Origin: an uncultured Oscillospiraceae bacterium
Lineage (GTDB): Bacteria; Bacillota; Clostridia; Christensenellales; CAG-138
Reading direction: 5' to 3'
DNA length: 64,000 nucleotides
NCBI GenBank assembly: GCA_964447605.1
Contig: CAYUTA010000006.1
Location: forward strand, 6,118-70,117
Under the pieces are notes generated by a model, which was not told the DNA's origin, ran no database searches, and saw only the letters and a list, made by a program, of their open reading frames with translations. The stretch's first letter is position 1; every line of letters begins with the position of its first letter. Positions 2,938 through 16,020 of this stretch are shown one piece after another. Position numbers and translations under genes: made by a program.

Positions 2938-3063
2938 TGGCGGCCCGCGCGGCTGTCAAGCCGCTGTTTTCTGATGGCTGAACGTACGGCCTTAAATAGG
3001 CGGTTTCCCTGTGCTTGTTGCCGCCCGGGATCCCGCAGGGCGAGAGGCAGCATGCGGTTGTCC

Positions 3064-3117: not shown

Positions 3118-3154
3118 CTCAATATCATTCAGTTTCGTTGCTTAAACGCAGCTT

Positions 3155-5041
3155 TTAGTACACCTTGCGCTTAACATAGGTCGTGTGCAAAATGTCGTGC
3201 GCCTTATGCGAACCGGGCTTTTCAAGATAGGTCCCATAGAGCTCCTTAATCACCGGGTTCTCATGGCTCTTGCGCAGCTTCATGCCCTTATCCTCATTAT
3301 ATAGCGCTTTGGCGCGGTCCGCGCGCAGATCGGTGAAGTTATGCACATCGCCGGGCTGATATGGCTGCCCGCCGCCGTTGACGCAGCCGCCGGGGCACGC
3401 CATGACCTCGATGAAATGGTAATCCTTCTGGCCGGACTTGACCATGTCGAGGAGTTTGCTGGCGTTTTCAAGGCCGCTTGTGACCGCCACGCGCACCTTC
3501 GTGCCGTTGAGGTCATATTCAGCCTCCTTGATGCCCTCCACGCCGCGTACGGCAGTAAAGTCCACGTTCTCAAGCGGCTTTCCGGTCACAAGCTCCGCAA
3601 CGGTACGCAACGCAGCCTCCATCACGCCGCCGGTCGCGCCAAAGATATGCCCCGCGCCGGAGGCAATGCCCATTGCCGGGTCGAATTCCTCATCCTTGAG
3701 ATCGTTGAACAGAATGCCCGCCTGCTTGATCATCGAGGCGATCTCGCGCGTGGTCAGCGACACGTCGATATCCGGGATGCCGGAGCCTGCGGCGCTCATG
3801 TCGTCACGGGTGATTTCGAACTTCTTGGCCGTGCAGGGCATGACCGACACCACAAAAATATCCTTGGGGTCGATCCCTTCCCGTTCGGCATAATACGTCT
3901 TGACCAGCGCGCCAAACATGCCCTGCGGACTCTTGCAGCTGGACAGGTTGTCGATCATATCCGGATAGTAGTGCTCGCAGAACTTGATCCAGCCCGGTGA
4001 GCACGATGTAATCATCGGCAGCTTGCCGCCGTTTTGCAGCCGCTCAAGCAGTTCGGTGCCCTCTTCCATGATCGTCACGTCCGCGGCAAAGTCCACATCA
4101 AAGACCTTGTCGAACCCAAGCCGCCGCAACGCGGCCACCAGCTTGCCCTCTACGTTGGTGCCAATCGGCAGGCCAAAGCACTCGCCCAGCTGGGCGCGCA
4201 CGCTCGGCGCGGGGCCAACAACGACCTTTTTGCTCGGGTCGGCCAGCGCGGCCCAGACCTTTTCGGTGTCGTCGCGCTCGGTCAGCGCGCCCGTGGGACA
4301 CACCGCAATGCACTGGCCGCAGTTGACGCAGCTTGTGGTCTGCAGCGGCATATCGAACGCGCAGCCCACATGGGTGTCGAAGCCGCGCTCGTTCACGCCG
4401 ATGACAGCCGTGTGCTGGTTGTGCTTACAGACCGCAACGCAGCGGCGGCAGAGAATGCACTTGCTGTTGTCGCGCAGAATACGGGGCAGGTCGGCGGACG
4501 CTTCGGAACCTTCGACCGGTTCGAACAATTCCGGTCCGGCGCCGCAGACAGGACAGCGCTCCGCGCCCTCGTCAAACTCCGCGCCACAGGCGATGCAGCG
4601 CATCCTGCGCTTGCCCGCAACGACCGGTTCCTCCTGCGCCTGGTTCTCGTCCTCCTTGCCCCAGCAGTACTTGTACTGATCCACACCGTATTCGCGGGCC
4701 AGCGCCTGCAGCTCGCAGTCGCCGCAACGCACGCACGAGAGGCAGTCCATCCGGTGGTTGCTCAAAATCAGCTCCAGCGTGGTTTTGCGCGCTTTGCGCA
4801 GCGCGGGCGTGTCGGTTTTGACCTCCATGCCGTCCGATACCTGCTGCACGCACGCCGCGGCAAGCCCGCGCACGCCCGTAGCTTCTACAAGGCAGATGCG
4901 GCAGGCCGCAATCGCATTGACATCCCTTAAATAACACAGCGTCGGGATGCGGACGCCAACCTCGCGCGCCGCCTGCAAAATGGTATAATTGGCGGGAACC
5001 TGAACTTCGATTCCATTGATTTTCACAGTTACTTTTTCCAT
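3155..5041 (-). CDS. [FeFe]-hydrogenase catalytic subunit, multidomain HndD/HydA (bifurcating-type, group A3-like)
   Basis: ORF 3155..5068 trimmed to MEKVTVKING (ATG 5041, GAGGAGG 7 nt upstream). Domains: N-terminal 2Fe-2S, His-ligated 4Fe-4S (NHRMDCLSCVRCGDCELQ) and 2x[4Fe-4S]. H-cluster motifs are TSCSPGW, MPCTAKKFE and EVMACPGGCVNGGGQP. Confidence 0.9.
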   Translation of the reverse strand: MEKVTVKINGIEVQVPANYTILQAAREVGVRIPTLCYLRDVNAIAACRICLVEATGVRGLAAACVQQVSDGMEVKTDTPALRKARKTTLELILSNHRMDCLSCVRCGDCELQALAREYGVDQYKYCWGKEDENQAQEEPVVAGKRRMRCIACGAEFDEGAERCPVCGAGPELFEPVEGSEASADLPRILRDNSKCILCRRCVAVCKHNQHTAVIGVNERGFDTHVGCAFDMPLQTTSCVNCGQCIAVCPTGALTERDDTEKVWAALADPSKKVVVGPAPSVRAQLGECFGLPIGTNVEGKLVAALRRLGFDKVFDVDFAADVTIMEEGTELLERLQNGGKLPMITSCSPGWIKFCEHYYPDMIDNLSSCKSPQGMFGALVKTYYAEREGIDPKDIFVVSVMPCTAKKFEITRDDMSAAGSGIPDIDVSLTTREIASMIKQAGILFNDLKDEEFDPAMGIASGAGHIFGATGGVMEAALRTVAELVTGKPLENVDFTAVRGVEGIKEAEYDLNGTKVRVAVTSGLENASKLLDMVKSGQKDYHFIEVMACPGGCVNGGGQPYQPGDVHNFTDLRADRAKALYNEDKGMKLRKSHENPVIKELYGTYLEKPGSHKAHDILHTTYVKRKVY

Positions 5042-5054
5042 CGCGCCTGCCTCC

Positions 5055-6851
5055 TCACTTCTTCTCAATTGCGCCGAACTTGCAGTTATCCATGCACACG
5101 CCGCACTTGATGCACTTGCTCTGGTCGATCACATGCGGCTCCTTCACCTTGCCGGAAATGGCGTTTGCCGGGCATTTCCTTGCGCACAGGGTGCAGCCCT
5201 TACACTTGTCGGCATGGATGGTAAAGCGCATCAGCTTCTTGCACACGCCCGCCGGGCAGTGCTTCTCAACAACATGCGCCTCATACTCCTCGCGGAAGTA
5301 GCGCAAGGTGGAGAGCACCGGGTTGGGCGCGGTCTGGCCAAGCGCACACAGCGCATTGTTCTTGATGTGGTAGCAAAGCTCCTCCATCTCGTCGAGATCC
5401 TCCAGCGTGGCGTTGCCCTCGGTGATCTTATTGAGCATCTCCAGCAGGCGGCGCGTACCGATGCGGCAGGGCGTGCACTTGCCGCAGCTTTCATCCACCG
5501 TAAATTCCAGGAAGAAGCGCGCTACGTCCACCATGCAGTTGTCCTCGTCCATGACGATCAGTCCGCCGCTGCCCATCATGGAGCCGATTGCCGACAGGTT
5601 TTCATAATCGATGGGCGTGTCCAAATGCTGCGCCGGGATACAGCCGCCGGACGGGCCGCCCGTCTGCGCGGCCTTAAACGCTTTTCCATCGGGAATGCCG
5701 CCGCCGATATCGTAGAGAATATGCCGCAGCGTCGTACCCATCGGAATCTCCACAAGGCCGGTGTTGACGATCTTGCCGCCAAGCGCGAACACCTTGGTTC
5801 CCTTGGACTTGTCGGTGCCCATCGAGGCGAACCATTCCGGCCCCTTCACAATGATCTGTGGGATGTTGGCAAGCGTCTCCACATTGTTAATGATGGTCGG
5901 ATAGCCGAACAGACCCTTGTTGGCCGGGAAAGGCGGCTTGTTGCGCGGCTCGCCGCGATTGCCCTCGATGCTGGTCAACAGCGCCGTTTCCTCGCCGCAG
6001 ACAAACGCGCCCGCGCCAAGGCGGATGTCGATATCGAAGGAGAAATCCGTGCCAAAGATATTCTTGCCCAGCAGCCCGTATTCGCGCGCCTGGCCAATGG
6101 CGATCTCAAGGCGCTTGACCGCGATGGGATATTCGGCACGCACATAAATGTACCCATGGCCCGCGCCGATGGCATAGCCCGCGATGGTCATTGCCTCAAG
6201 CACCGCGTGCGGATCGCCCTCAAGCACGGAACGGTCCATGAACGCGCCCGGGTCGCCCTCGTCGGCGTTGCACACGACATACTTGGTATCACAGACATTA
6301 TTGGCCGCAAACTGCCACTTCATACCGGTTGGGAAACCCGCGCCGCCGCGTCCGCGCAGCCCGGAAGCCTTCATCAGGTCGATCACGTCCTGCGGCGTCA
6401 TCTCGGTCAGCACGCGTCCCAACGCCAGATAACCGTCAACGGCGATGTATTCGTCGATGACCTCCGGGTTAATCACGCCGCAGTTGCGCAGCGCAACGCG
6501 CATCTGGGATTTGTAAAACGGCGTATCCGCGAGGCTGGCCACGCTGTGCGGGGCCGCGCCTTCCTCCGGCGCGTTGTAAACCAGCCGCTGTACGGGACGG
6601 CCCTTGAGCAGATGCTCCTGCACGATCTCCGTCACATCGTCGTTGGTGACGCGGCTATAAAACGTGCCTTCCGGGTAAACGATCATGATCGGGCCGAGCG
6701 CGCACAGGCCAAAGCAGCCGGTCTGTACAACCTTGATTTCCTCATCCAGACCGTTTGCCTTGAGTTCCTTTTCGAGGTGCGCCTGGATTTTCTGGCTGCC
6801 CGACGACGTGCAGCCGGTACCGCCGCAGATCAATACATGTGAACGAATCAT
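5055..6851 (-). CDS. NADH-binding flavoprotein subunit, NuoF-like (HndC/HydB)
   Basis: N-terminal thioredoxin-like 2Fe-2S module. NuoF core motifs GRGGAGFPTG and ESCGKCTPCR. C-terminal 2x[4Fe-4S] (CKGCTLCARKCP, CIKCGVCMDNC). GGAGG RBS. Confidence 0.9.
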   Translation of the reverse strand: MIRSHVLICGGTGCTSSGSQKIQAHLEKELKANGLDEEIKVVQTGCFGLCALGPIMIVYPEGTFYSRVTNDDVTEIVQEHLLKGRPVQRLVYNAPEEGAAPHSVASLADTPFYKSQMRVALRNCGVINPEVIDEYIAVDGYLALGRVLTEMTPQDVIDLMKASGLRGRGGAGFPTGMKWQFAANNVCDTKYVVCNADEGDPGAFMDRSVLEGDPHAVLEAMTIAGYAIGAGHGYIYVRAEYPIAVKRLEIAIGQAREYGLLGKNIFGTDFSFDIDIRLGAGAFVCGEETALLTSIEGNRGEPRNKPPFPANKGLFGYPTIINNVETLANIPQIIVKGPEWFASMGTDKSKGTKVFALGGKIVNTGLVEIPMGTTLRHILYDIGGGIPDGKAFKAAQTGGPSGGCIPAQHLDTPIDYENLSAIGSMMGSGGLIVMDEDNCMVDVARFFLEFTVDESCGKCTPCRIGTRRLLEMLNKITEGNATLEDLDEMEELCYHIKNNALCALGQTAPNPVLSTLRYFREEYEAHVVEKHCPAGVCKKLMRFTIHADKCKGCTLCARKCPANAISGKVKEPHVIDQSKCIKCGVCMDNCKFGAIEKK

Positions 6852-6866
6852 ATCCTAGTCCTCCCG

Positions 6867-7232
6867 TCAATTCTCGCCGATGGTGTATTCGTAAACAGGC
6901 CTGCCGCCCTTGATATGCTCCGTTACCACGCGCGCGGCCTTTTCCGGCGTCATCCTGACGTAGGTAACCTTTTCCTTGCCGGCCTCGAATACCTCCACAA
7001 TGGGCTCAAGGCGGCAGATGCCGATGCAACCGGTCTGCGTGACGGTCGCCTGATCGCGCAGGCCCTGCTTATCCACTTCCTCAACAAGCGTGTTGAGCAC
7101 CGGCCGCGCGCCCGCGGCGATGCCGCAGGTCGCCATACCCACGACGATGCGAATATCATTGCTGCCCTCGCGCAAATCGACCTTGTCCTTCATCCTTGCG
7201 CGGATTTCCGCCAATTCCTGCAGTGATTTCAT
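6867..7232 (-). CDS. thioredoxin-like [2Fe-2S] ferredoxin (HndB/HydD-like)
   Basis: 121 aa with MATCGIAAGA and QTGCIGICRLEP motifs. It occupies the conserved position directly upstream of the nuoF-like gene. Confidence 0.8.
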   Translation of the reverse strand: MKSLQELAEIRARMKDKVDLREGSNDIRIVVGMATCGIAAGARPVLNTLVEEVDKQGLRDQATVTQTGCIGICRLEPIVEVFEAGKEKVTYVRMTPEKAARVVTEHIKGGRPVYEYTIGEN

Positions 7233-7471
7233 TTGGTTTATTCTCTCCTTTGCAAAATAATTGTTGTATATCTGCGCGCGGGCGGCCCGTCGCTTTGGAT
7301 ATTGCCGCCGCTGTTATCAAGGGTTTTCATACGTTCAGATTCCCGTGGTTTCGGCGGTGCAGCCCGTCTCCGGTCCTCCGCCGACCGGCTCCGCGCCGCA
7401 GCCTGCCGCTCTTAATCCGGCGTTCAGCCTTTTTTTCCGAGGGTCTTTGGCACGCCAGGGTGCGTGCCGCG

Positions 7472-8014
7472 TCATTCGGCTTCATCCAGATAAGCGCGCA
7501 CCCACGCGAGCACCTCCGGGTCATTGAGCGGGACGTCGGGCCCGAGCATCTCGCGCATTTCCTCGGTGGACAGCCGCTTTTCCACACCGTCGGCCGTATG
7601 CGCAAACGTCAGCTTCAGCGCAGGACTGCCCTGAATCAGGGTCACGATGGTGGCCGCCACATCCCCAAGCGGCGCGCAATCCATGTGATCGGTAAAAAAA
7701 GTGGCGCGCACGCGCGTCCCGTGCGCGGGATCGTCCTGTGTGCGCTGTTTGGAGGCGATTGTAAGCGTTCCGCCCGTCTGCTCCGCCGCCAGTTGAAACA
7801 GCGGCAGCCCCATGCCCACCTTGCGCGTGGTGCGCGTGGTCGTAAACGGGTCTGTAACCGCCATGAGAAACTCCGGGCTCATGCCGCAGCCGTCGTCGCT
7901 GATGGTGATGGTCAGGCGCCCCCTCTTCTGCTCGAGCAGAATGTCCAGACGCTCCGCGCCCGCCTTGACCGAGTTTTGCGCAATATCCAGAATATTGAGC
8001 GAAAGCTCCTTCAT
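7472..8014 (-). CDS. GHKL-type ATP-binding protein (histidine-kinase-like ATPase domain only)
   Basis: ORF 7472..8116 trimmed to MKELSLNILDIAQNS (ATG 8014), which forms an ATGA overlap with the PHP gene stop. Motifs: N-box-like LDIAQNS, DDGCGM and GMGLPL. Confidence 0.75.
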   Translation of the reverse strand: MKELSLNILDIAQNSVKAGAERLDILLEQKRGRLTITISDDGCGMSPEFLMAVTDPFTTTRTTRKVGMGLPLFQLAAEQTGGTLTIASKQRTQDDPAHGTRVRATFFTDHMDCAPLGDVAATIVTLIQGSPALKLTFAHTADGVEKRLSTEEMREMLGPDVPLNDPEVLAWVRAYLDEAE

Positions 8015-8745
8015 GCCGTCCGCCCCCTTAATGCCCGGATCAGCGCGGTTCGCACGCTCTGCGCATCCCCGCCACAGTCCATCTCCAGCGAAAATCCACC
8101 GTCGGCCAGTTTCCACAGCTGATGCGCATCCGAGCTTACCACCACGCGCCGGTTCGCCAGGTTGTAGCGCCCGGTATACGCCTCCACATTGACCGCGTCG
8201 TTATATTCCACGGCGGCAAACGCCGGTTCCTGCGGAAAGCTGCCCAGAACGGCGATTATGCCGTTGCTCTCGCGGTCGATGTGCGCCGGATAGGCTGCGC
8301 CGCCAAATTGCTCCGTCAGCGCCGCGCCGTCGGAAAGCGTCAGCATCGTGGCGTTGACAAGCAGATTCGGCTCCTCCCCCACCACCCCGTCGTCCTTCCC
8401 AATGCGCAGTTGATTGCCAAACACTTCCGTACGGTTGGGAATCATCACCCGGGAGGCCTGCACCTGCGCGTCAAATGCTTGCGCCTGCTCCAGCGTGGGG
8501 AACAGGCAGATCATATGGATGTCCTCGGCCGTGGTCAGCTCCATGCCGGGCACGGGAACAATTCCGTAATGCGCGCATGCGTCGAAGAACGTTTCGCAGT
8601 TGCCGCAGGTGTTGTGATCTGTCAGCGCAACCAGTCCAAGCCCGTTAAGCTTTGCCATGCCCGCAATGGAATAGGGCGTCATATCGTCGTTCGCACAGGG
8701 CGACAGGCACGAGTGCACATGCAGATCGCAGGCAAACCGCTTCAT
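8011..8745 (-). CDS. PHP-domain metal-dependent phosphoesterase
   Basis: ORF 8011..9171 trimmed to MKRFACDLHVHSCLSPCA (ATG 8745), which forms an ATGA overlap with the DRTGG gene stop. Motifs: DLHVHS, LTDHN and SSDAH. Confidence 0.8.
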   Translation of the reverse strand: MKRFACDLHVHSCLSPCANDDMTPYSIAGMAKLNGLGLVALTDHNTCGNCETFFDACAHYGIVPVPGMELTTAEDIHMICLFPTLEQAQAFDAQVQASRVMIPNRTEVFGNQLRIGKDDGVVGEEPNLLVNATMLTLSDGAALTEQFGGAAYPAHIDRESNGIIAVLGSFPQEPAFAAVEYNDAVNVEAYTGRYNLANRRVVVSSDAHQLWKLADGGFSLEMDCGGDAQSVRTALIRALRGRTA

Positions 8746-9068
8746 ACCAGCCCGCCAAGCCGGACGCACAACTCGTAGGCCGAGAGCGGGCTTTTGAGAA
8801 TGTTCACGCCGCGCGCACGCGCCGTATCCGCAACGCCCGCGTCGGGCTGCACGCCCTCGGCAAGCACAATGCACGCCACGTCCGTCAATGCCGCCACCGC
8901 GACAATATTGTTGTTGGACATGATCGTTACCCAAGCTTCGTCGGCCTGCGCGCGCCCCATAACCCAACTGAGCAGATCGCCGGTATAGCCGCCCGCCACC
9001 GTGCGCTCCCCGTCGCAAAGTACGATAGGCTCCAGTTCCAGGTCGTTGCAAAGCTCGCGCACCGTCAT
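8742..9068 (-). CDS. DRTGG domain-containing protein (paralog 2)
   Basis: ORF 8742..9197 trimmed to MTVRELCNDL (ATG 9068), which forms an ATGA overlap with the HydS-like gene stop. The block GGYTGDLLSWVM..WVTIMSNNNIVAVAAL..IVLAEG follows the typical DRTGG layout. Confidence 0.75.
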   Translation of the reverse strand: MTVRELCNDLELEPIVLCDGERTVAGGYTGDLLSWVMGRAQADEAWVTIMSNNNIVAVAALTDVACIVLAEGVQPDAGVADTARARGVNILKSPLSAYELCVRLGGLV

Positions 9069-10363
9069 TTGTCCCCATCCTCCTGCCGGCGCAGCAGCGC
9101 ATGGATTCGCTCGCGCATATACACGATGCACTCGTCCACCGTCCGCTCTCCGCGCACAATGTCCTCCGCAAACGCCCGGCAGGTCGGCGCGCCGCACGAG
9201 CCGCAGTCCAGCGCGGGCAGCGACTCCGTGATGGCCTCGATTTCCGACATCTTTTGCAGTGCCGCGTTCATGTCCTCATCCAGCTTGCTTACGGGCTGGT
9301 ATTCCAGCTCCTCGGCAAAAAGCACGCGCTGCGGCAGATAGTCCGGACTGTCCTCCTCCACCTTGGGCAGGCGGTTTTGCGAAACCGGAAGATACCGCCT
9401 GAGCGTTTGCAGGCGCACGCGCGCAATGTAGGGATTTTCCACTGTCGCAACGCCGCCGACGCATCCGCCGTTGCAGGCGTTGAGCTCCACAAATTCCAGG
9501 AGCGGGAAATGTCCCGTTTCGATCTCGTCCAGCACACGGATGACGTTCTCGATCCCATCCGCGGCCAGATAGCGGTCGTTGAGCAGCGCGGACGACTCGC
9601 CGCCCGTGCTCGCCCAGCTCATGCCGATCATGCCGCTCCTGCTCACGGCTTTGGGAGGGCGCTCCTTGCTCATCTGCCCGATGAGCTTAAAATAGATATC
9701 GCTCATGGACACCACGTAATCCACGTTGGAACGCTTGCCCATGAATCCGTTTTTTACGTAGCTCGCCTTGGCCGGACAGGGCGAAATGAATACCACCGCC
9801 ACATCCTCCGGCTTGAGCGAAGGATTCTTTTTGAGCGCTGCGGCGCGCGCCATCTCGCCCGCCACCTCGACCGGAGGCATCAGGGGAATCACATGGTCGC
9901 ACAAATAGGGGAACCGCAGGCTGATCAGCCGCACGATCACCGGGCAGGCGGAATTGATGATCGGCCGCGCCATGTCGGCCGTCTTGATATACCGGCGCGT
10001 ATACTCGCTCACAAGCTCCGCGGCGCAGGCAACCTCGAACACGTCGTCAAAACCGATATCCAGCAGGCCCTGCAACACATAGTCCACATCGTCGAGATTT
10101 TCAAACTGTCCATACAGCGACGGCGCGGGCAGGGCGATGCGGTACTTCCCCGCGTCAATGTCCTCAAAATGGTCAAACGTCGCCTTTTTCGCCTTATAGG
10201 GGCAGACGCGGATACACTCGCCGCAATCAATGCAAACAGCGGAGTTGATGACCGCATGTCCCTCGCGGATGCGGATGGCCTCCGTAGGACAGCGCTTGAG
10301 GCAGTTGGTGCAGCCCTTACATTTTTCCGTGTCGAGCGATACCGAATGCTTGTACCCTTCCAT
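9065..10363 (-). CDS. putative sensory [FeFe]-hydrogenase-like protein (HydS-like, no PAS domain)
   Basis: ORF trimmed to MEGYKHSVSLD (ATG 10363). N-terminal 2x[4Fe-4S] (CKGCTNCLKRCP, CIDCGECIRVCP). H-domain motifs are NSACPVIV, ISPCPAK and ELNACNGGCVGG. The C-terminal extra motif is CGSCGAPTC-x16-C. Confidence 0.85.
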   Translation of the reverse strand: MEGYKHSVSLDTEKCKGCTNCLKRCPTEAIRIREGHAVINSAVCIDCGECIRVCPYKAKKATFDHFEDIDAGKYRIALPAPSLYGQFENLDDVDYVLQGLLDIGFDDVFEVACAAELVSEYTRRYIKTADMARPIINSACPVIVRLISLRFPYLCDHVIPLMPPVEVAGEMARAAALKKNPSLKPEDVAVVFISPCPAKASYVKNGFMGKRSNVDYVVSMSDIYFKLIGQMSKERPPKAVSRSGMIGMSWASTGGESSALLNDRYLAADGIENVIRVLDEIETGHFPLLEFVELNACNGGCVGGVATVENPYIARVRLQTLRRYLPVSQNRLPKVEEDSPDYLPQRVLFAEELEYQPVSKLDEDMNAALQKMSEIEAITESLPALDCGSCGAPTCRAFAEDIVRGERTVDECIVYMRERIHALLRRQEDGDK

Positions 10364-10412
10364 GTTCCGACCCTTTATGTTTATTCCAATTGCCGCCGGT
10401 TCCGGCGCGGCG

Positions 10413-10838
10413 TCACGCCACAAACACCTTCATGGTGACGGTCGTGCCCTTGCCGACCTCGGATGCAATCTCCATGCTGTCAGTATATCGTTTCATGTTC
10501 GGCAGGCCCATCCCCGCGCCAAAACCCAGCGCACGGATATTATCCGGTGCGGTGGAATACCCTTCCTGCATGGCAAGTTCAATGTCCTTAATGCCCGGTC
10601 CCTCGTCGGTCAACACGATGGTGATGCAGTGCGTGTCGACAAACACTTCCGCCTTGCCGCCGCGCGCATGCACAACCATGTTGATCTCGCCTTCATACAT
10701 CGCAATGGACACCCGCCTGATCACCTCGGCCGAAAAGCCAAGCTGACGCAGCTTTTTTTTAACCTCCACAGACGCGGCGCCCGCGGACGTGAAGTTATCG
10801 CCGTCCACATCAAAGTGAAATCTCAGCGCGCCGTCCAT
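10413..10838 (-). CDS. anti-sigma-factor-type Ser/Thr kinase-like GHKL ATPase (RsbW/SpoIIAB-like)
   Basis: ATG 10838 lies 10 nt after GGAG; the ORF-track start at 10847 is a GTG overlapping the upstream stop. Motifs: TDEGPGI and GFGAGMGLPNM. Confidence 0.75.
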   Translation of the reverse strand: MDGALRFHFDVDGDNFTSAGAASVEVKKKLRQLGFSAEVIRRVSIAMYEGEINMVVHARGGKAEVFVDTHCITIVLTDEGPGIKDIELAMQEGYSTAPDNIRALGFGAGMGLPNMKRYTDSMEIASEVGKGTTVTMKVFVA

Positions 10839-10843
10839 GCCAA

Positions 10844-11188
10844 TCACACTCCGTTGCCAAGTCCTGCGGCATACAGCTTGCCGCAGGACTCATACATACG
10901 GTTCTGCGTACACAGCACCACAATATGGCTTTCCTGCGCCAGCTCGATCATTTCCGGCGTGGGGCGCTTGCTGCGCACAAACACCAGGCAGCGCATGTCC
11001 ATCATCATGGCCGTGCGAACCACCTGCGGATTGACCAGTCCCGTCAGCAGCACTGCCTGATCCTTGACATAGGCCAGCACGTCGCTCATCATGTCGCTCC
11101 CGCAGGCGGAAAGCGTCTCCTCCTCCAGCAGTTCCCCACAACAGAGCACCTCTGCGTCGAGCAATTCGGCAATCTGTCGAATTTTCAT
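10844..11188 (-). CDS. DRTGG domain-containing protein (paralog 1)
   Basis: ORF trimmed to MKIRQIAELL (ATG 11188, GGAGGG RBS). The block SDMMSDVLAYVK..VLLTGLVNPQVVRTA..LVFVRS has the same layout as the 8742..9068 protein. Confidence 0.7.
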   Translation of the reverse strand: MKIRQIAELLDAEVLCCGELLEEETLSACGSDMMSDVLAYVKDQAVLLTGLVNPQVVRTAMMMDMRCLVFVRSKRPTPEMIELAQESHIVVLCTQNRMYESCGKLYAAGLGNGV

Positions 11189-11224
11189 CCGTTTCCCTCC
11201 GTCCGTTACTGGGCGCAAGCGTGG

Positions 11225-11719
11225 TTATCGATATTTGGCGACAATACCCTTGATATCCTCGGGGACAAGACGTCCGTATACCTCGTCGTCGATCATCAGG
11301 ACCGGCGCAAGGCCGCAGCAGCCGAGGCAGCGCGTTGCTTCCAGCGTGAAAACGCCGTCCTGCGTGGTGCCGCCCGCCTTTACGCCAAGCTCCTTTTCCA
11401 ATTCATCGAGGATGACCTGCGCGCCCTTGACGTAGCAAGCCGTTCCGAGGCACACGGCAACGCGGTGTTTGCCGGTGGGGTTGAGCGCAAACTGGGCATA
11501 GAACGTGACAACCTGATAAACCTCTTCAAGTGATACGCCCAAGCCCTCGGCGATGATGGTTTGCACCTCGACCGGCAGGTAACCGTAGATTTCCTGCGCC
11601 TTTTGCAGCACCGGCATCATTGCGCCCTGCGTATCCTTATAGCTGGCGATCACTTCTCTGAGCTGTTTCTCCTGCTCTGCCGTCCCCTGAAAGGGCACAA
11701 CAGTCTTTTGCTTTGCCAT
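11225..11719 (-). CDS. NuoE-like thioredoxin-fold [2Fe-2S] subunit (HndA/HydC)
   Basis: 164 aa with the NuoE Cys pattern CLGTACYVKGA and RCLGCCGLAP. GAGGAGG RBS. It is the first gene of the operon. Confidence 0.9.
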   Translation of the reverse strand: MAKQKTVVPFQGTAEQEKQLREVIASYKDTQGAMMPVLQKAQEIYGYLPVEVQTIIAEGLGVSLEEVYQVVTFYAQFALNPTGKHRVAVCLGTACYVKGAQVILDELEKELGVKAGGTTQDGVFTLEATRCLGCCGLAPVLMIDDEVYGRLVPEDIKGIVAKYR

Positions 11720-11772
11720 ATGCGTCCTCCTCGATCGAATGATATGTATGTAGGGGTATATTACCGATGCTC

Positions 11773-11801
11773 ATTATACCATATGCGTATGGACAAACCA
11801 A
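11773..11801 (-). promoter_or_regulatory. candidate promoter of the hydrogenase operon
   Basis: On the minus strand: TTGGTT (11801-11796), 17-nt spacer, extended -10 TGgTATAAT (-10 hexamer at 11778-11773), about 55 nt upstream of the nuoE-like ATG. Confidence 0.5.
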
Positions 11802-12058
11802 GCAAAAAATAATCTTTTATCGATTTTTTCATATAGGAATCATTTCCTGTCAAAGCAAAAAAAAGACCGCGATTCAGAGCGTTGTTTTGAAAACCACAGG
11901 GACGCGCGCGCAGGCTATCGCCACGCGGCCTCAGCGTACGGTACAAGGCCGCCTCCGCCGATGTTTTCCATCTCGGCACACGCTTGCTTTTCCGGGTGCG
12001 AGGCCGCAGGTTTCTCCCCTCGCGGCGCCGCTTTCGTTACATGATTTCCAGCGCTCTG

Positions 12059-12097
12059 AAAAGGGGCCGCCATTGCTGGTCGGCCCCTTTTCGTTTT
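12059..12097. terminator. bidirectional intrinsic terminator (ends the permease transcript)
   Basis: AAAAGGGGCCG-ccattgctggt-CGGCCCCTTTT. The GC stem is flanked by an A-tract and a T-tract, about 50 nt downstream of the permease stop. Confidence 0.7.
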
Positions 12098-12143
12098 GAA
12101 ACGAGAAATGGAGTGCTTGGGGTATTTGGGAAACCGGTTATGC

Positions 12144-13421
12144 TTACAGGTCCACCCCGGTGAACTCGTAGTCCTTGCCCGGCAGCAACGCGTTTACAAG
12201 AACGCCAACCACCGCGGCAACCGCCAGGCCGCCGAAGGACAGCGGGCCAATCGCCAGCGGCGCCGCATTGAAGCCGAGACCGCAGACCAGAATCAACGCC
12301 GCGACAAGGACGTTTCTCATGTTCTTAAAGTCCACCTTGTTCTCCACGATGGTACGGATACCGGTTGCGGAGATCATGCCGTAGAGCACGACCGACACGC
12401 CGCCGATGATCGACCACGGAATCGTGTTGATGAACGCGTCGAAGATTGCGACAAACGAGAGGATGATCGTCATGCAGGCAGCGATAAACATGACCTTCGG
12501 GTCATACACCCTGGTCAGCGCGACAACGCCGGTGTTCTCGGAATACGTCGTGTTGGCCGGTCCACCGAGGCAGCCCGCAATCGACGTTGCGATACCGTCG
12601 CCAAGCAGCGTGCGGGTGAGGCCCGGGTCGGCGATGAAGTTCTTGCCGCAGGTCGCGCCGATGGCGCAGATGTCGCCGATGTGCTCGATCATGGCCGCAA
12701 GCGCAACCACGACGAATGTGACAATCGCGCCGATCTCAAACTTTGGCAGGAAGAACGGCGGCACCGAAACAATGGCCGCGCCCTGCAGGCTTGAGAAGTC
12801 CACCCAGGGCAGCCCGAACAGATTCGGGTTGATCAGGGTGATGATGCAGCCGATGATGTATGCGCCGAAGATACCGATGAGGATCGGCAGGATCTTGATC
12901 ATGCCCTTGCCAAACAGGTTGACGCAGATGATGATCGCAATGGCGATGATTGCCAGAATCCAGTTGGCCGACGCACTCGAGATGCCGGTCGGAGCAAGGA
13001 TCAGACCGATGAGGATGATGATCGGGCCTGTAACCACGGGCGGGAAAAGGCGCATGACGCGCTTGGGCCCGAAGACCTGGAACAGGATGGCCAGAATCAC
13101 ATACACAGCGCCCGCGCACACAACGCCGCCGGTTGCATACGGCAGCATCGCCGGATCTCCGTTTGCTACGGATGCAAACGCACCGAGGAACGCAAACGAG
13201 GAGCCCAGGAATACGGGAATCTTCCGCTTGGTGATGAAAAAGAACCAGAGCGTACCGATGCCGGCGCAGAACAGCGTTACGGCTACGGACAGACCCGTGA
13301 GCAAGGGGACGAGCACCGTGGCGCCGAACATGGCAAAGACGTGCTGGAGGCCGAGAATGAGCATTTTGCCCGTTCCAAGCTCTTTAAAGCCATCATAAAT
13401 GCCTTCAACTTTGTTTTCCAT
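12144..13421 (-). CDS. NCS2-family nucleobase:cation symporter (uracil/xanthine permease, UraA/PyrP-like)
   Basis: 425 aa polytopic protein. Motifs LGLQHVFAMFGATVLVPLLTG and IPVFLGSSFAFL match the uracil-xanthine permease family. AGGAGG RBS. Confidence 0.9.
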   Translation of the reverse strand: MENKVEGIYDGFKELGTGKMLILGLQHVFAMFGATVLVPLLTGLSVAVTLFCAGIGTLWFFFITKRKIPVFLGSSFAFLGAFASVANGDPAMLPYATGGVVCAGAVYVILAILFQVFGPKRVMRLFPPVVTGPIIILIGLILAPTGISSASANWILAIIAIAIIICVNLFGKGMIKILPILIGIFGAYIIGCIITLINPNLFGLPWVDFSSLQGAAIVSVPPFFLPKFEIGAIVTFVVVALAAMIEHIGDICAIGATCGKNFIADPGLTRTLLGDGIATSIAGCLGGPANTTYSENTGVVALTRVYDPKVMFIAACMTIILSFVAIFDAFINTIPWSIIGGVSVVLYGMISATGIRTIVENKVDFKNMRNVLVAALILVCGLGFNAAPLAIGPLSFGGLAVAAVVGVLVNALLPGKDYEFTGVDL

Positions 13422-13671
13422 TGAATTACCTCCTAATAAATTTGATTAGGTCTCCATTTCTCCCGTTATATCAAGAGCTTGCGCCCTATGATACCGTTTT
13501 GACGATACGCTTTCCCCTCCCGAGGGAAAGCGTCGGATTTGTATATAAGCACAATTTTCGAGCCGAGATTAAGAATTTTCCAGATAGGGTGTTTACTCTG
13601 CCTTGCGGTTATCACCCGGTAAGAGGAGGGGGGGCAATCCCCCATCCCGCTTACCAAGTAATTATACAACA

Positions 13672-16020
13672 TTATTTGTTGTTTGTCACCCCTTTTCGTT
13701 CGCGCAGCGCCGCAAGCACGTCGTCCGGCGTGATCGGCATGCGGTTGAAACGTACGCCGATGGCATTGTATACGGCGTTTGCAATGGCCGGCGCGCCGGG
13801 TACCATCAACGGCTCTCCGACGCCGCGCGCGCCGTAAGGCCCGGTGGGTTCCGCATGCTCGACGTACTTCACGATCATCTCGGGGATATCGTCGGCGGTC
13901 GGGATCTTGTAATCGACAAAGGATTTATTGAGCACCTTGCCATCCTTGAGCTTGAGCTCTTCAAAGATCGCCGTGCCGAGCGCCTGCACCATCGCGCCCT
14001 CGCTCTGTGCGCAGAACAGCGCCGGATTGATCACCTTACCTGCGTCAAAGCAGCTGGCCATCTTCAACACCTTGATATGCCCGGTCTCGGTATCCACCTC
14101 GACCTCGGCGCCGTTGACGCCCATCGTCCAGAACGCCGCCGGATGATGCTTGGCAACGCCCGTCTTCTTATCGGTATTGATATTGTTCTCGAGCGTGAAC
14201 GAACCGACGCCGATGGCCGGGCCGCCGTAGCCGGAGCCGTCATCAAACGCAACGCCAAGCGCAAAGTCGGAGATCGGCAGCCGGCGCTCAGGGTAAATCC
14301 TATGCATCACATAGCCGTCCTCGAACTTTAGGTCGCGCTTGACCGCGCCCATCTTGACCTGCGCAAGGTCAAGCACCTTATCGACCAGATCCTCCGCCGC
14401 CAGCTTCACCGCATTGCCCGCACAGTAGGTGGTGCGGCTTGCGACCGTCTGCCACTCGTACGGGGTATGGTCGGTATCGCCGGAGCAGAACGTGATCTTG
14501 TCGGGCGAAACGGAGAGCACCTCTGCCGCGATCTGGGGCAGCACGGTGGCCGCGCCCTGACCGATCTCCTGTCCGCTGCTCATAAGGAAGAACGTACCGT
14601 CCTCGTTCATGCGGATGATGGCGGCGCTGCCCGCGTTGGTGGGCATGGAGGGCGATTTCCAGCCGCTGGCAATGCCCTTCGCGCGAATTCTAGTCGGGCT
14701 TCCCGTCGGTTCGCAGGGCTTGTCGTACTCGATGTCCTTGAGAACGGTTTCAAGGCATTCCTGGAAGCCCGCAACGTCCATGCGTTCGCCCATACCGGTG
14801 TGGCCGCCGGGGCGCAGGCCGTTGATGCGGCGGAGCTCCACCTCCGATATCCCCATTTCCTTTGCAATTTCATCGACATTCTGTTCGATGGCAAAGTGGA
14901 TTTCACACATACCGAAGCCGCGGTACGGGCCGCCGACCGGATGGTTGGTATAGACGCAGTAGCTGTCCGTCCAGACGTTGTCGACGTCATACGGACCGGC
15001 GGAGGCCCATCCGCCCGCTTTGGTGATGTTTACGCCATACTCGGTGTAGGCGCCGCCGTCCCAGATGAAGTCGTTCTTCACGCCGAGAATCTTACCGTCG
15101 TTTCGCATGGCTGTCTTGATGGTGGCGTGCATGCCCTGCCGTACATACGCGTTGACAAACTCGTCCTCGCGGGTATACACCAGCTTGACCGGGCGGCCCG
15201 CGCAGTGCCTGGCAAGCGGAATCACGATGCCCTCGAGCGTAGTGCCGGCCTTGCTGCCAAACCCGCCGCCCACCGTGGGCGAGATGACGCGGATTTTGTT
15301 GAGCGGCATGGCAAACGCCACCGAAAGCGCCTGACGTACCGCGTACGGAGACTGGCAGCTCGCCCAGACGGTCAGCTTGCCGTCGGCCTCGTACTTGGCC
15401 ATGCAGGCGTGCGGCTCAAGCGGCACATGCTGTACGTGCGGGATATAGTAGCTATGCTCGAATACCTTGTCGGCCTTCCTGCATGCCTCGTCGAAATCGC
15501 CCTTGCGCAACACATAGTGATGCGAGATGTTTGTCCCCGGCACCGGGTAGAAGATCGGCGCGACCTTGTAGCTGCCCAACTCCGGATGGATGACGGGCGC
15601 ATCGGGCTTCATGCCCTCCACGGCGTTGGTCACCGCGGGAAGTTCCTCGTACTTGACCTTGATGAGGTCGCACGCAGCCTGCGCAATCTCCGGCGTTTCC
15701 GCCGCAACGGCCGCAACGGCCTCGCCCATGTATTTGGCGGTATCGCCCGGCTTTGCCATGAAATAGCGGTCTTCGAGATACAGGCCCGCGCGGTTTGGAT
15801 ATTCATCGCCGCAGATGCAGCAGCGCACGCCCGGCAGCTTTTTCGCCTCCGTCATGTCGACGGAAAGAATCCTGGCATGGGCATAGGGGCTGCGCACGCA
15901 CTGGGCGTACAGCATGCGCGGCAGATGGATATCGTCGACATACTCGGCGGCGCCGGTGACCTTTTTAATCGCGTCGGAACGCTGGTAGGCCTTGCCCACA
16001 TGCTTGAGCTCTTCCATCAC
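13672..16020 (-). CDS. xanthine dehydrogenase-family molybdopterin-binding large subunit (set 1)
   Basis: 782 aa. N-terminal KKVTGAAEYVDD hammerhead region, plus GGGFGSK and GARGVGEP blocks. The start forms an ATGA overlap with the 2Fe-2S subunit stop. Confidence 0.9.
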   Translation of the reverse strand: MMEELKHVGKAYQRSDAIKKVTGAAEYVDDIHLPRMLYAQCVRSPYAHARILSVDMTEAKKLPGVRCCICGDEYPNRAGLYLEDRYFMAKPGDTAKYMGEAVAAVAAETPEIAQAACDLIKVKYEELPAVTNAVEGMKPDAPVIHPELGSYKVAPIFYPVPGTNISHHYVLRKGDFDEACRKADKVFEHSYYIPHVQHVPLEPHACMAKYEADGKLTVWASCQSPYAVRQALSVAFAMPLNKIRVISPTVGGGFGSKAGTTLEGIVIPLARHCAGRPVKLVYTREDEFVNAYVRQGMHATIKTAMRNDGKILGVKNDFIWDGGAYTEYGVNITKAGGWASAGPYDVDNVWTDSYCVYTNHPVGGPYRGFGMCEIHFAIEQNVDEIAKEMGISEVELRRINGLRPGGHTGMGERMDVAGFQECLETVLKDIEYDKPCEPTGSPTRIRAKGIASGWKSPSMPTNAGSAAIIRMNEDGTFFLMSSGQEIGQGAATVLPQIAAEVLSVSPDKITFCSGDTDHTPYEWQTVASRTTYCAGNAVKLAAEDLVDKVLDLAQVKMGAVKRDLKFEDGYVMHRIYPERRLPISDFALGVAFDDGSGYGGPAIGVGSFTLENNINTDKKTGVAKHHPAAFWTMGVNGAEVEVDTETGHIKVLKMASCFDAGKVINPALFCAQSEGAMVQALGTAIFEELKLKDGKVLNKSFVDYKIPTADDIPEMIVKYVEHAEPTGPYGARGVGEPLMVPGAPAIANAVYNAIGVRFNRMPITPDDVLAALRERKGVTNNK

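What the first reader, a model, noticed from the sequence alone, without database searches (positions are those of the whole stretch)
7472..11188. Six-gene putative H2-sensing cassette (HydS-like + 2 DRTGG + 2 GHKL ATPases + PHP) inserted between hndA and hndBCD
Seen in the sequence: the minus-strand order is nuoE-like, DRTGG-1, RsbW/SpoIIAB-like ATPase, HydS-like hydrogenase, DRTGG-2, PHP phosphoesterase, GHKL ATPase, then hndB, the nuoF-like gene and hydA. Three junctions are ATGA start/stop overlaps (9065-9068, 8742-8745, 8011-8014), which suggests translational coupling and a stoichiometric complex. Established knowledge: sensory-type [FeFe] hydrogenases are proposed H2 sensors. Anti-sigma-type GHKL kinases normally phosphorylate STAS-domain partners and are opposed by PP2C phosphatases. 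Inference: no STAS, PP2C, sigma factor, receiver or DNA-binding domain was recognised in the cassette or operon. DRTGG proteins sit where STAS partners would be, and PHP sits where the phosphatase would be. This looks like an uncharacterised partner-switching or phospho-signalling module, possibly acting post-translationally on the bifurcating hydrogenase itself. The duplicated DRTGG/ATPase pairs suggest two branches. To my knowledge the mechanism of such cassettes has not been described.
Basis: partly seen in the sequence, partly recalled or inferred. Interest (0 to 1): 0.75.

Follow-up and report, generated by a model that had tools for sequence, protein, structure and literature searches.

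The report
Hydrogen-sensor gene block beside bifurcating hydrogenase
The six genes are real and belong to a gene block conserved across many gut and rumen Clostridia, in which a sensor-type iron hydrogenase sits with two small DRTGG proteins, two ATP-binding proteins and a phosphoesterase inside the operon of a hydrogen-producing enzyme; the block had been noticed before, but how it signals is still unknown.

Summary
Window 7472-11188 (minus strand) encodes DRTGG-1, a SpoIIAB-like GHKL ATPase, a group D (M2e) HydS-type [FeFe] hydrogenase, DRTGG-2, a PHP phosphoesterase and a second GHKL ATPase. They lie between nuoE/hndA and hndB-nuoF-hydA, and the three ATGA overlaps are present.

The ten-gene order recurs in 79 of 80 species genomes examined. 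All catalytic and metal-binding motifs are invariant.

The interpretation needs four corrections:
- The movable unit is five genes (DRTGG1 to PHP). ATPase-2 stays with nuoE/hndB in a variant layout, which is also the Clostridium thermocellum layout.
- The two ATPases are not duplicates. One is SpoIIAB-like. The other is a histidine-kinase-type ATP-binding domain with a MutL/GyrB-like extension and no phospho-acceptor domain.
- DRTGG has the AF1212 / HPr-kinase N-domain fold, not the STAS fold.
- M2e HydS next to kinases and bifurcating hydrogenases has been noted since 2010-2012. A 2026 paper still says the partners are unidentified.

Best reading: an H2-responsive regulatory module dedicated to the bifurcating hydrogenase, possibly a non-canonical kinase/phosphatase partner switch acting on an invariant DRTGG serine. 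Phosphotransfer and the output are inferred, not shown.

The parts
11773..11781 (-). Candidate operon promoter: a perfect extended -10 box (TGGTATAAT), 54 nt upstream of the nuoE start codon.
   Evidence: Read directly. Only 3 such sites occur in the 64 kb window, against 0.55 expected. A terminator-like hairpin at 12062-12086 closes the upstream permease gene.
11225..11719 (-). nuoE/hndA/hydC-like thioredoxin-type [2Fe-2S] subunit of the bifurcating hydrogenase.
   Evidence: PF01257 at 1.5e-52. Co-evolves with hydA and nuoF.
10844..11188 (-). DRTGG-1, 114 aa, a stand-alone DRTGG-fold protein. It carries an invariant D32-x-x-S35 motif and lacks the canonical GGDR motif.
   Evidence: PF07085 at 5e-9. 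The AF2 model has pLDDT 90.8. Foldseek gives TM 0.84 to AF1212 (2ioj) and 0.71 to the HprK/P N-domain, with no STAS hit. Invariant residues are listed.
10413..10838 (-). ATPase-1, 141 aa, a SpoIIAB/RsbW-type GHKL protein (candidate serine kinase).
   Evidence: PF13581 at 1.7e-10. TIGR01925 at 8e-18, below its cut-off. The profile matches SpoIIAB structures over the full length at 4.6e-10. E49, N53, D78xGxG and the GFGAGMGLPNM motif are invariant.
9065..10363 (-). HydS, 432 aa, a group D (M2e) sensor-type [FeFe] hydrogenase. It has two N-terminal [4Fe-4S] motifs, an H-domain and a C-terminal Cx2Cx4Cx16C cluster motif, and no PAS domain.
   Evidence: Domains. Motifs: C140, C196, C297 and C301 are kept; A139 replaces C299; S194 replaces M353; the C-terminal motif is C387/C390/C395/C412. 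These match the group D definition in Land 2020.
8742..9068 (-). DRTGG-2, 108 aa, a diverged paralogue of DRTGG-1 with an invariant D31-x-x-S34 motif. Its start overlaps the HydS stop (ATGA).
   Evidence: PF07085 at 6e-6. hhalign against DRTGG-1 gives 98.4% probability, E 4e-15. A natural DRTGG2-PHP fusion exists, P0461.
8011..8745 (-). PHP-family metal-dependent phosphoesterase, 244 aa. All metal ligands are invariant, and it has an unusual invariant HSCLSPC motif.
   Evidence: PF02811 at 6.6e-8. H9, H11, D43/H44, E69, H77, H155 and D206/H208 are invariant. The nearest solved relatives are the EndoQ N-domain, TM0559 and 2yb1. The subfamily has 288 clusters at E<=1e-30, almost all stand-alone proteins of about 240 aa.
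7472..8014 (-). ATPase-2, 180 aa. It is a stand-alone histidine-kinase-type ATP-binding domain (N, G1, F and G2 boxes) with a 70-aa extension that completes a MutL/GyrB-like Bergerat fold. It has no DHp or HPt domain. In other lineages it belongs to the hydrogenase core operon.
   Evidence: PF02518 at 8.9e-15 and PF13589 at 5e-9. Histidine-kinase CA domains match at about 1e-9 over residues 8-92 only. The AF2 model has pLDDT 86.7. Foldseek whole-length best matches are MutL, PMS2, MLH1 and TopoVI-B, with TMq 0.53-0.61. The variant gene order is shown.
7233..7471 (-). An unusually long (239 nt) non-coding gap between ATPase-2 and hndB. It may hold an internal promoter.
   Evidence: The median gap in 72 orthologous loci is 36 nt. 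No Rfam family matches, and no promoter or terminator signal rises above shuffled controls.
6867..7232 (-). hndB/hydD-like small thioredoxin-fold protein, with only three conserved Cys.
   Evidence: PF01257 at 7e-5. Conservation. Co-evolution signal with DRTGG-1, r=0.40.
5055..6851 (-). nuoF/hndC/hydB-like flavin and NAD(H)-binding subunit.
   Evidence: PF01512 at 3e-47 and PF10589 at 3e-36.
3155..5041 (-). hydA/hndD, the catalytic [FeFe] hydrogenase of the NADH-dependent (bifurcating) type.
   Evidence: NF040763 (FeFe_hydrog_A6) scores 888 bits against a cut-off of 765. Hairpins at 3063-3116 follow the stop codon.

Best explanation
The region is the regulatory half of a single ~8.7 kb ten-gene operon for an electron-bifurcating [FeFe] hydrogenase.

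Components:
- A five-gene block: DRTGG-1, a SpoIIAB-like GHKL kinase, a group D HydS, DRTGG-2 and a PHP phosphoesterase.
- A sixth protein, ATPase-2, which in other lineages sits inside the hydrogenase core operon (nuoE-ATPase2-hndB-nuoF-hydA).

Proposed mechanism:
1. HydS binds and slowly turns over H2, and changes conformation. This is shown for the homologue TamHydS.
2. That change alters how HydS engages the DRTGG-1/ATPase-1 pair (inferred).
3. ATPase-1 phosphorylates a DRTGG protein on the invariant serine of the D-x-x-S motif, at the N-cap of helix 2 (inferred).
4. PHP, working with DRTGG-2, removes the phosphate (inferred).
5. The resulting state is passed through ATPase-2 and/or HndB to the HydABC enzyme, or to an unlinked regulator (inferred).

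The effect would be to restrain H2 production, or reverse operation, when H2 accumulates.

I put about 0.6 on 'an H2-responsive regulatory module dedicated to the bifurcating hydrogenase' and about 0.3 on the specific kinase/phosphatase partner-switch chemistry. The confidence figure of 0.5 is my overall figure for this explanation as worded, set between the two.
For: - The gene order and tight spacing are kept in 79 of 80 species genomes, and no other gene is conserved around the block. The block is therefore self-contained.
- HydS meets every sequence criterion of group D/M2e.
- TamHydS shows low activity, CO tolerance and an H2-induced secondary-structure change.
- ATPase-1 aligns over its full length with SpoIIAB, and its catalytic Glu/Asn and G1/G2 boxes are invariant.
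- The order DRTGG-1 then ATPase-1 mirrors spoIIAA then spoIIAB.
- Both DRTGG paralogues keep an invariant D-x-x-S motif that is absent from canonical DRTGG proteins. In the model it lies at a helix N-cap with locally lower confidence.
- All PHP metal ligands are invariant, and an in-frame DRTGG2-PHP fusion exists.
- Mirror-tree partial Mantel tests recover the known HydABC complex as a positive control. They also split the cassette into {DRTGG1, ATPase1, HydS, hndB} and {DRTGG2, PHP, ATPase2}.
- The literature reports that NADH-dependent hydrogenase activity in a Thermoanaerobacter relative responds to H2 pressure.
Against: - No phosphotransfer, binding or H2 response has been measured for any accessory protein.
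- DRTGG is not a STAS fold, and no DRTGG protein is known to be phosphorylated.
- The nearest solved relatives of the PHP protein are EndoQ, a pAp phosphatase and RNase AM, not protein phosphatases.
- ATPase-2 lacks any His-phosphotransfer domain, and as a whole resembles ATP-clamp GHKL proteins (MutL, GyrB, TopoVI-B) more than kinases.
- ATPase-1 scores far below the SpoIIAB and RsbW equivalog cut-offs.
- The C-terminal cluster of TamHydS does not respond to H2 (abstract).
- No output domain is encoded in the block.
- Apart from DRTGG1-hndB, the co-evolution signals link adjacent or neighbouring genes (DRTGG2-ATPase2 is separated only by PHP; DRTGG1-HydS only by ATPase1), so shared recombination history could produce them.
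Confidence: 0.5

Rival explanations
1. The sensing cascade is the same, but the output is transcriptional and encoded elsewhere. ATPase-1 would act as a true anti-sigma or anti-activator that sequesters an unlinked sigma factor or regulator. The cassette would then control expression of the hydrogenase operon, and perhaps of fermentation genes, rather than enzyme activity.
For: ATPase-1 is closest to the anti-sigma F factor. In T. mathranii the HydS gene is flanked by an AraC-family regulator. Deleting group C HydS/HfsB changes adhE transcript levels. The operon has one strong candidate promoter that could be the target.
Against: No sigma factor, AraC or other DNA-binding gene is conserved next to the block in 80 genomes or in the window. 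No Rex box is present. The cassette is always embedded in or abutting the hydrogenase genes, which is not required for a trans-acting regulator.
Confidence: 0.25
2. No protein phosphorylation is involved. The two GHKL proteins would be ATP-driven clamps or switches. The DRTGG proteins would be dimerisation or nucleotide-sensing adaptors, as in CBS-pyrophosphatases and Pta. PHP would hydrolyse a small nucleotide. The module would then combine energy charge with H2 level, or assist assembly of the hydrogenase complex.
For: The whole-length fold of ATPase-2 matches MutL, PMS2, TopoVI-B and GyrB. The closest structures to DRTGG are the regulatory region of CBS-pyrophosphatase and the HprK/P N-domain. 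The nearest solved relatives of PHP act on nucleic acids or nucleotides.
Against: ATPase-1 is specifically SpoIIAB-like, and that family is made of protein serine kinases. The invariant Ser motif shared by both DRTGG paralogues is left unexplained. The canonical DRTGG motif is lost.
Confidence: 0.2
3. HydS is not a sensor. It would be a low-activity auxiliary or alternative catalytic module that exchanges electrons with HydABC, and the accessory genes would be unrelated passengers.
For: HydS keeps all H-cluster ligands and two relay clusters. TamHydS does turn over H2.
Against: TamHydS has low activity and lacks the group A proton pathway. Five accessory genes with signalling-type domains are kept with HydS in 79 of 80 genomes, with overlapping reading frames. 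Passengers would not be conserved in this way.
Confidence: 0.05

Closest known systems
Group D (M2e) putative sensory [FeFe] hydrogenase TamHydS of Thermoanaerobacter mathranii (Land et al. 2020; Schumann et al. 2026)
   Same: The domain plan is the same: two [4Fe-4S] motifs, an H-domain and a C-terminal Cx2Cx4Cx16C motif, with no PAS domain. C299 is lost and M353 is replaced by Ser. The gene lies next to a heterotrimeric bifurcating group A hydrogenase and a histidine-kinase-like ATPase.
   Different: In the window no AraC regulator is adjacent. Position 497 is Asn rather than Leu, though the paper says this position is poorly conserved. The published work studies the enzyme alone and states that its interaction partners are unidentified. 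Here the full conserved partner set is defined.
Group C (M2f) HydS/HfsB systems (Thermotoga maritima HydS, Ruminococcus albus HydS, Thermoanaerobacterium hfsABCD)
   Same: These are also sensor-type [FeFe] hydrogenases with a C-terminal cluster, encoded beside bifurcating hydrogenases and protein kinase/phosphatase genes. Genetic evidence supports a regulatory role.
   Different: [quoted passage not shown] The window system has no PAS domain and uses DRTGG, GHKL and PHP proteins instead.
Partner-switching modules SpoIIAA-SpoIIAB-SpoIIE and RsbV-RsbW-RsbU/P (and the two-tier RsbS-RsbT plus RsbV-RsbW cascade)
   Same: There is a small GHKL protein of the SpoIIAB family. It is encoded immediately after a small alpha/beta protein that has an invariant serine at a helix N-cap. 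A hydrolase is encoded in the same operon. There are two small-protein paralogues and two GHKL proteins, as in the two-tier sigma-B cascade.
   Different: The small proteins have the DRTGG fold, not STAS. The hydrolase is PHP, not PP2C. No sigma factor is encoded in the block. The second GHKL protein is not of the RsbT/RsbW type.
Regulatory [NiFe] hydrogenase HoxBC-HoxJ-HoxA of Ralstonia eutropha
   Same: The logic is the same: a crippled hydrogenase senses H2 and controls an energy-converting hydrogenase through a kinase-type partner.
   Different: The proteins are unrelated. That system has a PAS-containing histidine kinase and a response regulator, and its output is transcriptional. None of these parts is present here.
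DRTGG-domain proteins: AF1212, the CBS-pyrophosphatase regulatory region, and the HprK/P N-terminal domain
   Same: The fold is the same: TM 0.84 to AF1212, 0.73 to the CBS-pyrophosphatase region and 0.71 to the HprK/P N-domain.
   Different: The canonical GGDR motif is replaced by TGLVN (DRTGG-1) or TIMSN (DRTGG-2). A subfamily-specific D-x-x-S motif is added. The proteins are stand-alone and paired with GHKL and PHP genes.

Membership tests
Group D (M2e) [FeFe] hydrogenase (HydS) | [quoted passage not shown] | tested here: met
   Fer4 families and Fe_hyd_lg_C at 1.8e-31. C140, C196, C297, C301 and K199 are invariant in 81 sequences.
Group D (M2e) [FeFe] hydrogenase (HydS) | C-terminal Cx2Cx4Cx16C cluster motif and no PAS domain. 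| tested here: met
   The motif is C387-x2-C390-x4-C395-x16-C412. PF04060 scores 7e-14. No PAS domain was found.
Group D (M2e) [FeFe] hydrogenase (HydS) | The proton-relay Cys299 is lost, and Met353 is replaced by Ser or Thr. | tested here: met
   The motifs read NSACP (A139) and ISPCPAK (S194), and both are invariant.
Group D (M2e) [FeFe] hydrogenase (HydS) | Acts as an H2 sensor. | not testable with these tools
   This is only proposed, even for TamHydS.
SpoIIAB/RsbW anti-sigma serine kinases (ATPase-1) | Single-domain GHKL protein with N, G1 and G2 boxes, homologous over its full length. | tested here: met
   The profile matches SpoIIAB structures at 4.6e-10 over residues 7-137. The boxes are invariant.
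SpoIIAB/RsbW anti-sigma serine kinases (ATPase-1) | Scores as an equivalog of SpoIIAB or RsbW. | tested here: not met
   TIGR01925 scores 64.6 bits against a cut-off of 135. RsbW scores 22 against 145.
Partner-switching module | A STAS-domain antagonist as the kinase substrate. | tested here: not met
   No STAS domain is present in the operon. The DRTGG-1 model finds no STAS structure.
Partner-switching module | A PP2C-type phosphatase and a sigma factor or other defined target. | tested here: not met
   None is present in the ten proteins, the window flanks, or as a conserved neighbour in 80 loci.
Two-component sensor histidine kinase (ATPase-2) | A catalytic ATP-binding (CA) domain with N, G1, F and G2 boxes. 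| tested here: met
   HATPase_c at 8.9e-15. Histidine-kinase CA domains match at about 1e-9. N14, D40xGxG44, P56-F57 and G67xG69 are invariant.
Two-component sensor histidine kinase (ATPase-2) | A DHp domain with a phospho-accepting His, and a cognate response regulator. | tested here: not met
   The protein is 180 aa. Residues 107-180 form strands and helices that extend the Bergerat fold. No receiver domain is present in the operon.
DRTGG domain family (PF07085) | Pfam match above the gathering score, and the DRTGG fold. | tested here: met
   The scores are 36.4 and 26.4 bits against a cut-off of 25.2. TM is 0.84 to 2ioj.
DRTGG domain family (PF07085) | The eponymous conserved D-R-T-G-G residues. 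| tested here: not met
   The aligned segment reads LLTGLVN in DRTGG-1 and VTIMSN in DRTGG-2, against TGGDR in AF1212.
PHP phosphoesterase family (PF02811) | The HxH, H, E, H, H and DxH metal-binding constellation. | tested here: met
   H9, H11, H44, E69, H77, H155, D206 and H208 are invariant in 35-77 orthologues.
PHP phosphoesterase family (PF02811) | Protein phosphatase activity, as in CpsB/YwqE (comparison recalled from memory, not tested here). | not testable with these tools
   The sequence search of solved structures returned EndoQ, TM0559, a pAp phosphatase and RNase AM, and no protein phosphatase.

The most novel reading that the evidence does not exclude
DRTGG proteins, a SpoIIAB-type kinase and a PHP phosphatase form a previously unrecognised partner-switching chemistry that needs neither STAS nor PP2C. 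It would read the H2 level from a PAS-less group D hydrogenase and act post-translationally on the electron-bifurcating hydrogenase itself, through ATPase-2 and HndB, rather than through a transcription factor.
Probability: 0.2. Interest if true: 0.85.

Novelty: new variant of a known kind. Interest (0 to 1): 0.6.

Why it matters
Electron-bifurcating hydrogenases set the H2/ethanol/acetate balance in gut, rumen and biofuel Clostridia. How these cells sense H2 is an open question. Group D hydrogenases are still called 'functionally undefined' (Cell 2024), and a 2026 study names identification of their interaction partners as the critical next step.

This analysis gives three things that can be tested directly:
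- A conserved, self-contained candidate partner set found in hundreds of species.
- A split of that set into two sub-modules.
- Specific residues to mutate: Ser35 in DRTGG-1, Ser34 in DRTGG-2, and the PHP metal site.

If the module proves to be a DRTGG/PHP-based switch acting on the enzyme, it would add a new type of bacterial phospho-signalling. It would also give a handle for engineering H2 and ethanol yields.

Tried and rejected
- **Regulatory RNA.** An Rfam scan of 2500-13000 at E<=1 found nothing, including in the 239-nt gap.
- **Rex operator.** A search with up to 3 mismatches found no site in the window.
- **Promoters and terminators.** The consensus scan of the operon gave counts no higher than shuffled controls. 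The extended -10 box upstream of nuoE was found by reading the sequence.
- **Conserved neighbouring regulator.** Clustering the flanking ORFs of 80 loci gave no family present in more than 10 loci.
- **DRTGG as a cryptic STAS.** Rejected by Foldseek.
- **The two ATPases as duplicates.** Rejected by profile comparison and by their structure matches.
- **L040.** This is the only locus where HydS is not followed by DRTGG2/PHP. The downstream 133-aa ORF is unrelated. I treat it as a rearrangement or a chimeric metagenome contig.
- Look-up of the window's own HydS contig returned nothing. Zheng et al. 2014 is not held.
- **Literature.** Searches for DRTGG with hydrogenase, PHP with bifurcating hydrogenase, and HydS with anti-sigma or partner-switching found no mechanistic paper.
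- **Not reached.** I could not sample distant lineages directly (Thermoanaerobacter, Caldicellulosiruptor), because the single genome scan returns only the 80 best matches. For those lineages I rely on locus-tag spacing in the literature.

Full report
**1. Observation**

The minus strand of window 3155-11719 carries ten closely packed genes.
- nuoE-like [2Fe-2S] protein, 11225-11719.
- DRTGG-1, 10844-11188 (PF07085, 5e-9).
- A small HATPase_c_2 protein whose best family is anti-sigma F factor SpoIIAB, 10413-10838.
- A 432-aa [FeFe]-hydrogenase-like protein, 9065-10363, with two ferredoxin-type cluster motifs, Fe_hyd_lg_C (1.8e-31) and a C-terminal PF04060 FeS domain.
- DRTGG-2, 8742-9068 (6e-6).
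- A PHP protein, 8011-8745 (6.6e-8).
- A second HATPase_c protein, 7472-8014 (8.9e-15).
- hndB-like, nuoF-like and hydA. The hydA product scores 888 bits on NF040763, the NADH-dependent group A6 model, against a cut-off of 765.

No STAS, PP2C, sigma, receiver or DNA-binding domain occurs in these ten proteins. The flanks encode a xanthine/uracil permease and a xanthine-dehydrogenase-type enzyme upstream, and a phosphodiester glycosidase and an FecCD transporter downstream.

**2. Transcription unit**

A perfect extended -10 element (TGGTATAAT, 11773-11781, minus strand) lies 54 nt upstream of the nuoE start. Only three such sites occur in the 64 kb window, against 0.55 expected. The upstream permease gene ends in a hairpin followed by a T-run (12062-12086). 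Hairpins follow the hydA stop codon at 3063-3116. Inside the operon, consensus promoter and terminator counts do not exceed shuffled controls. No Rfam family matches and no Rex box is present.

The one irregular feature is a 239-nt gap between ATPase-2 and hndB (7233-7471). The median gap in orthologous loci is 36 nt. An internal promoter there cannot be excluded.

**3. Conservation**

HydS has at least 8000 homologous 90%-identity clusters. A scan of one genome per species found at least 592 matching stretches. The best 80 loci are all Clostridia: Oscillospiraceae, Acutalibacteraceae, Christensenellaceae and relatives, at 58-84% HydS identity.

I mapped the ten window proteins onto the ORFs of these loci. 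The same order, nuoE-DRTGG1-ATPase1-HydS-DRTGG2-PHP-ATPase2-hndB-nuoF-hydA, appears wherever the contig is long enough. 69 loci hold all six cassette genes and 51 hold all ten. Every absence except L040 is at a contig end (L040). An independent set of gene calls with precomputed Pfam hits, from a 3.9 Mb genome, shows the same layout.

The junctions DRTGG1/ATPase1, HydS/DRTGG2, DRTGG2/PHP and PHP/ATPase2 have median spacings of -4, -4, -4 and -2.5 nt. Clustering all flanking ORFs found no family present in more than 10 of 80 loci. The ten-gene block is therefore self-contained and has no conserved regulator beside it.

**4. Internal structure of the cassette**

Five loci (L007, L046, L053, L054, L069) have the order DRTGG1-ATPase1-HydS-DRTGG2-PHP, then a gap of 218-339 nt, then nuoE-ATPase2-hndB-nuoF-hydA. 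The same layout follows from published locus tags:
- C. thermocellum: Cthe_0335 (M2e HydS), then Cthe_0338 (nuoE), Cthe_0339 (annotated 'histidine kinase') and Cthe_0340-0342.
- The same five-gene offset occurs in Caldicellulosiruptor, C. phytofermentans and Thermoanaerobacter pseudethanolicus.

So the unit that moves is a five-gene block. ATPase-2 belongs with the hydrogenase core genes.

**5. The proteins**

*HydS* meets every sequence criterion of group D/M2e given by Land et al. 2020:
- two N-terminal cluster motifs;
- H-cluster cysteines C140, C196, C297 and C301;
- Ala139 in place of the proton-relay Cys299;
- Ser194 in place of Met353;
- a C-terminal C387-x2-C390-x4-C395-x16-C412 motif;
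- no PAS domain.

Residues that the 2026 TamHydS study highlights appear to have counterparts here (R31/R33, E400/D401, D386, E256, D269, E293). I matched these by position offset only, so this is inference. No group C or D hydrogenase structure has been solved. The nearest solved structures are group A enzymes at about 1e-23.

*ATPase-1* aligns over its full length with SpoIIAB structures (4.6e-10). The catalytic Glu49/Asn53, D78xGxG and a GFGAGMGLPNM lid are invariant. It scores far below the SpoIIAB and RsbW equivalog cut-offs.

*ATPase-2* has histidine-kinase-type N, G1, F and G2 boxes but no DHp domain. Its AF2 model (pLDDT 86.7) matches MutL, PMS2, MLH1, TopoVI-B and GyrB over about 175-190 columns. 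Histidine kinases match only about 105 columns. The two ATPases are only distantly related to each other.

*DRTGG-1 and DRTGG-2* are paralogues (hhalign 98.4%, E 4e-15). The DRTGG-1 model (pLDDT 90.8) superposes on AF1212 (TM 0.84), the CBS-pyrophosphatase DRTGG domain (0.73) and the HprK/P N-domain (0.71). No STAS structure appears among the hits. Both paralogues have lost the canonical GGDR motif. Both share an invariant D-x-[ML]-S motif (D32/S35 and D31/S34) that AF1212 lacks. In the model this motif lies at the N-cap of helix 2, in a locally less confident segment.

*PHP* keeps all metal ligands invariant and has an unusual invariant HSCLSPC motif. Its nearest solved relatives are the EndoQ N-domain, TM0559, a pAp phosphatase and RNase AM. 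Its subfamily has 288 clusters (50% identity) at E<=1e-30, almost all stand-alone proteins of about 240 aa. One, P0461, is an in-frame DRTGG2-linker-PHP fusion.

**6. Co-evolution**

I ran mirror-tree partial Mantel tests on the 46 loci that have all ten proteins. The known HydABC complex came out as a positive control: nuoE-hydA 0.62, nuoF-hydA 0.54, nuoE-nuoF 0.32. The cassette then grouped as follows:
- DRTGG1-hndB 0.40, DRTGG1-HydS 0.37, DRTGG1-ATPase1 0.36.
- PHP-ATPase2 0.33, DRTGG2-ATPase2 0.27, DRTGG2-PHP 0.21.

All have p<=0.01. Apart from DRTGG1-hndB, these links join genes that are adjacent or separated by a single gene, so a shared recombination history is a confounder. The signal is suggestive only.

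**7. Literature**

- The M2e 'monomeric sensory' hydrogenases were already described as lying upstream of bifurcating hydrogenases. They are often separated from them by a histidine/serine kinase, and were classed as sensors on that basis (Carere 2012, citing Calusinska 2010).
- Land 2020 characterised TamHydS. [quoted passage not shown]
- Schumann 2026 showed that the C-terminal cluster does not respond to H2. It states that identifying the interaction partners is critical (abstract).
- Cell 2024 lists group D as functionally undefined.
- Group C HfsB has genetic evidence for a regulatory role.
- No paper in the searched library links DRTGG or PHP proteins to hydrogenases.

**8. Mechanism**

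The best-supported reading is an H2-responsive regulatory module dedicated to the bifurcating hydrogenase (about 0.6).

The more specific model is a non-canonical partner switch (about 0.3):
1. H2-induced change in HydS modulates the DRTGG-1/ATPase-1 pair.
2. ATPase-1 phosphorylates the invariant DRTGG serine.
3. PHP, together with DRTGG-2, reverses this.
4. ATPase-2 and/or HndB couple the state to HydABC.

What is shown: gene content, conservation, motif integrity, folds, paralogy and one fusion. What is inferred: every interaction, the phosphotransfer and the output.

The rivals are an unlinked transcriptional output (0.25), ATP-clamp or nucleotide sensing without protein phosphorylation (0.2), and HydS as an auxiliary catalytic module (0.05).

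**9. Verdict**

The finding is real and biologically meaningful. It is one instance of a widespread gene block that was already catalogued but has never been characterised. Against characterised systems it is a new variant of kinase/phosphatase partner-switch signalling. Its parts are non-canonical, and the mechanism rests on inference. Its value is that it makes the open question of how PAS-less group D hydrogenases signal directly testable.

Noticed in passing
window 4490-4666 (minus strand; HydA residues 126-184): HydA carries a rubredoxin-like insertion of about 59 aa (MRCxxCG...CPVCG) between its NuoG-type and ferredoxin domains. Among 50 orthologues only L004 shares it.
   Followed up: partly
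window 7233-7471: The non-coding gap between ATPase-2 and hndB is 239 nt, against a median of 36 nt in 72 orthologous loci. L003 has a similar gap of 233 nt. No Rfam hit, Rex box or clear promoter/terminator was found.
   Followed up: partly
window 6867-7232 (HndB-like protein): The HndB-like thioredoxin-fold protein has only three cysteines (C36, C69, C73). The second Cys of the usual CX4C pair is Gly41, and this is invariant in 73 orthologues. It may therefore not bind a standard [2Fe-2S] cluster.
   Followed up: no
window 10844-11188 and 6867-7232; loci L001-L080: DRTGG-1 and HndB show the strongest co-evolution signal among the cassette-related pairs (partial Mantel r=0.40, p<=0.001), although five genes separate them. 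This hints at a direct link between the cassette and the hydrogenase.
   Followed up: partly
window 11773-11781 and 12062-12086: A perfect extended -10 box lies upstream of nuoE, and a terminator-like hairpin closes the upstream permease gene. Together they mark the start of the ten-gene unit.
   Followed up: yes
L040:57-1802: This is the only one of 80 loci where HydS is not followed by DRTGG2/PHP. An unrelated 133-aa ORF follows, then genes on the opposite strand (DUF4867, fumarase C-terminal domain, DivIVA, Obg). It is either a rearrangement or a chimeric metagenome contig.
   Followed up: partly
protein P0461 (373 aa, from the representative library): A natural in-frame fusion of DRTGG-2 (with the DLLS motif), a Lys/Ala/Glu-rich linker and PHP (with the HTCLSPC motif).
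   Followed up: yes
window 8011-8745 (PHP residues 11-17): An invariant HSCLSPC sequence replaces the usual HxHTxxSxDG of PHP motif I (usual motif recalled from memory, not checked here). It places two conserved cysteines next to the metal site, which could be redox- or metal-sensitive.
   Followed up: no
window 12144-17404 (minus strand): Immediately upstream of the hydrogenase operon lie a xanthine/uracil permease and a three-subunit xanthine-dehydrogenase-type molybdoenzyme (Mo-binding, [2Fe-2S] and FAD subunits). This neighbourhood is not conserved in the related loci.
   Followed up: no
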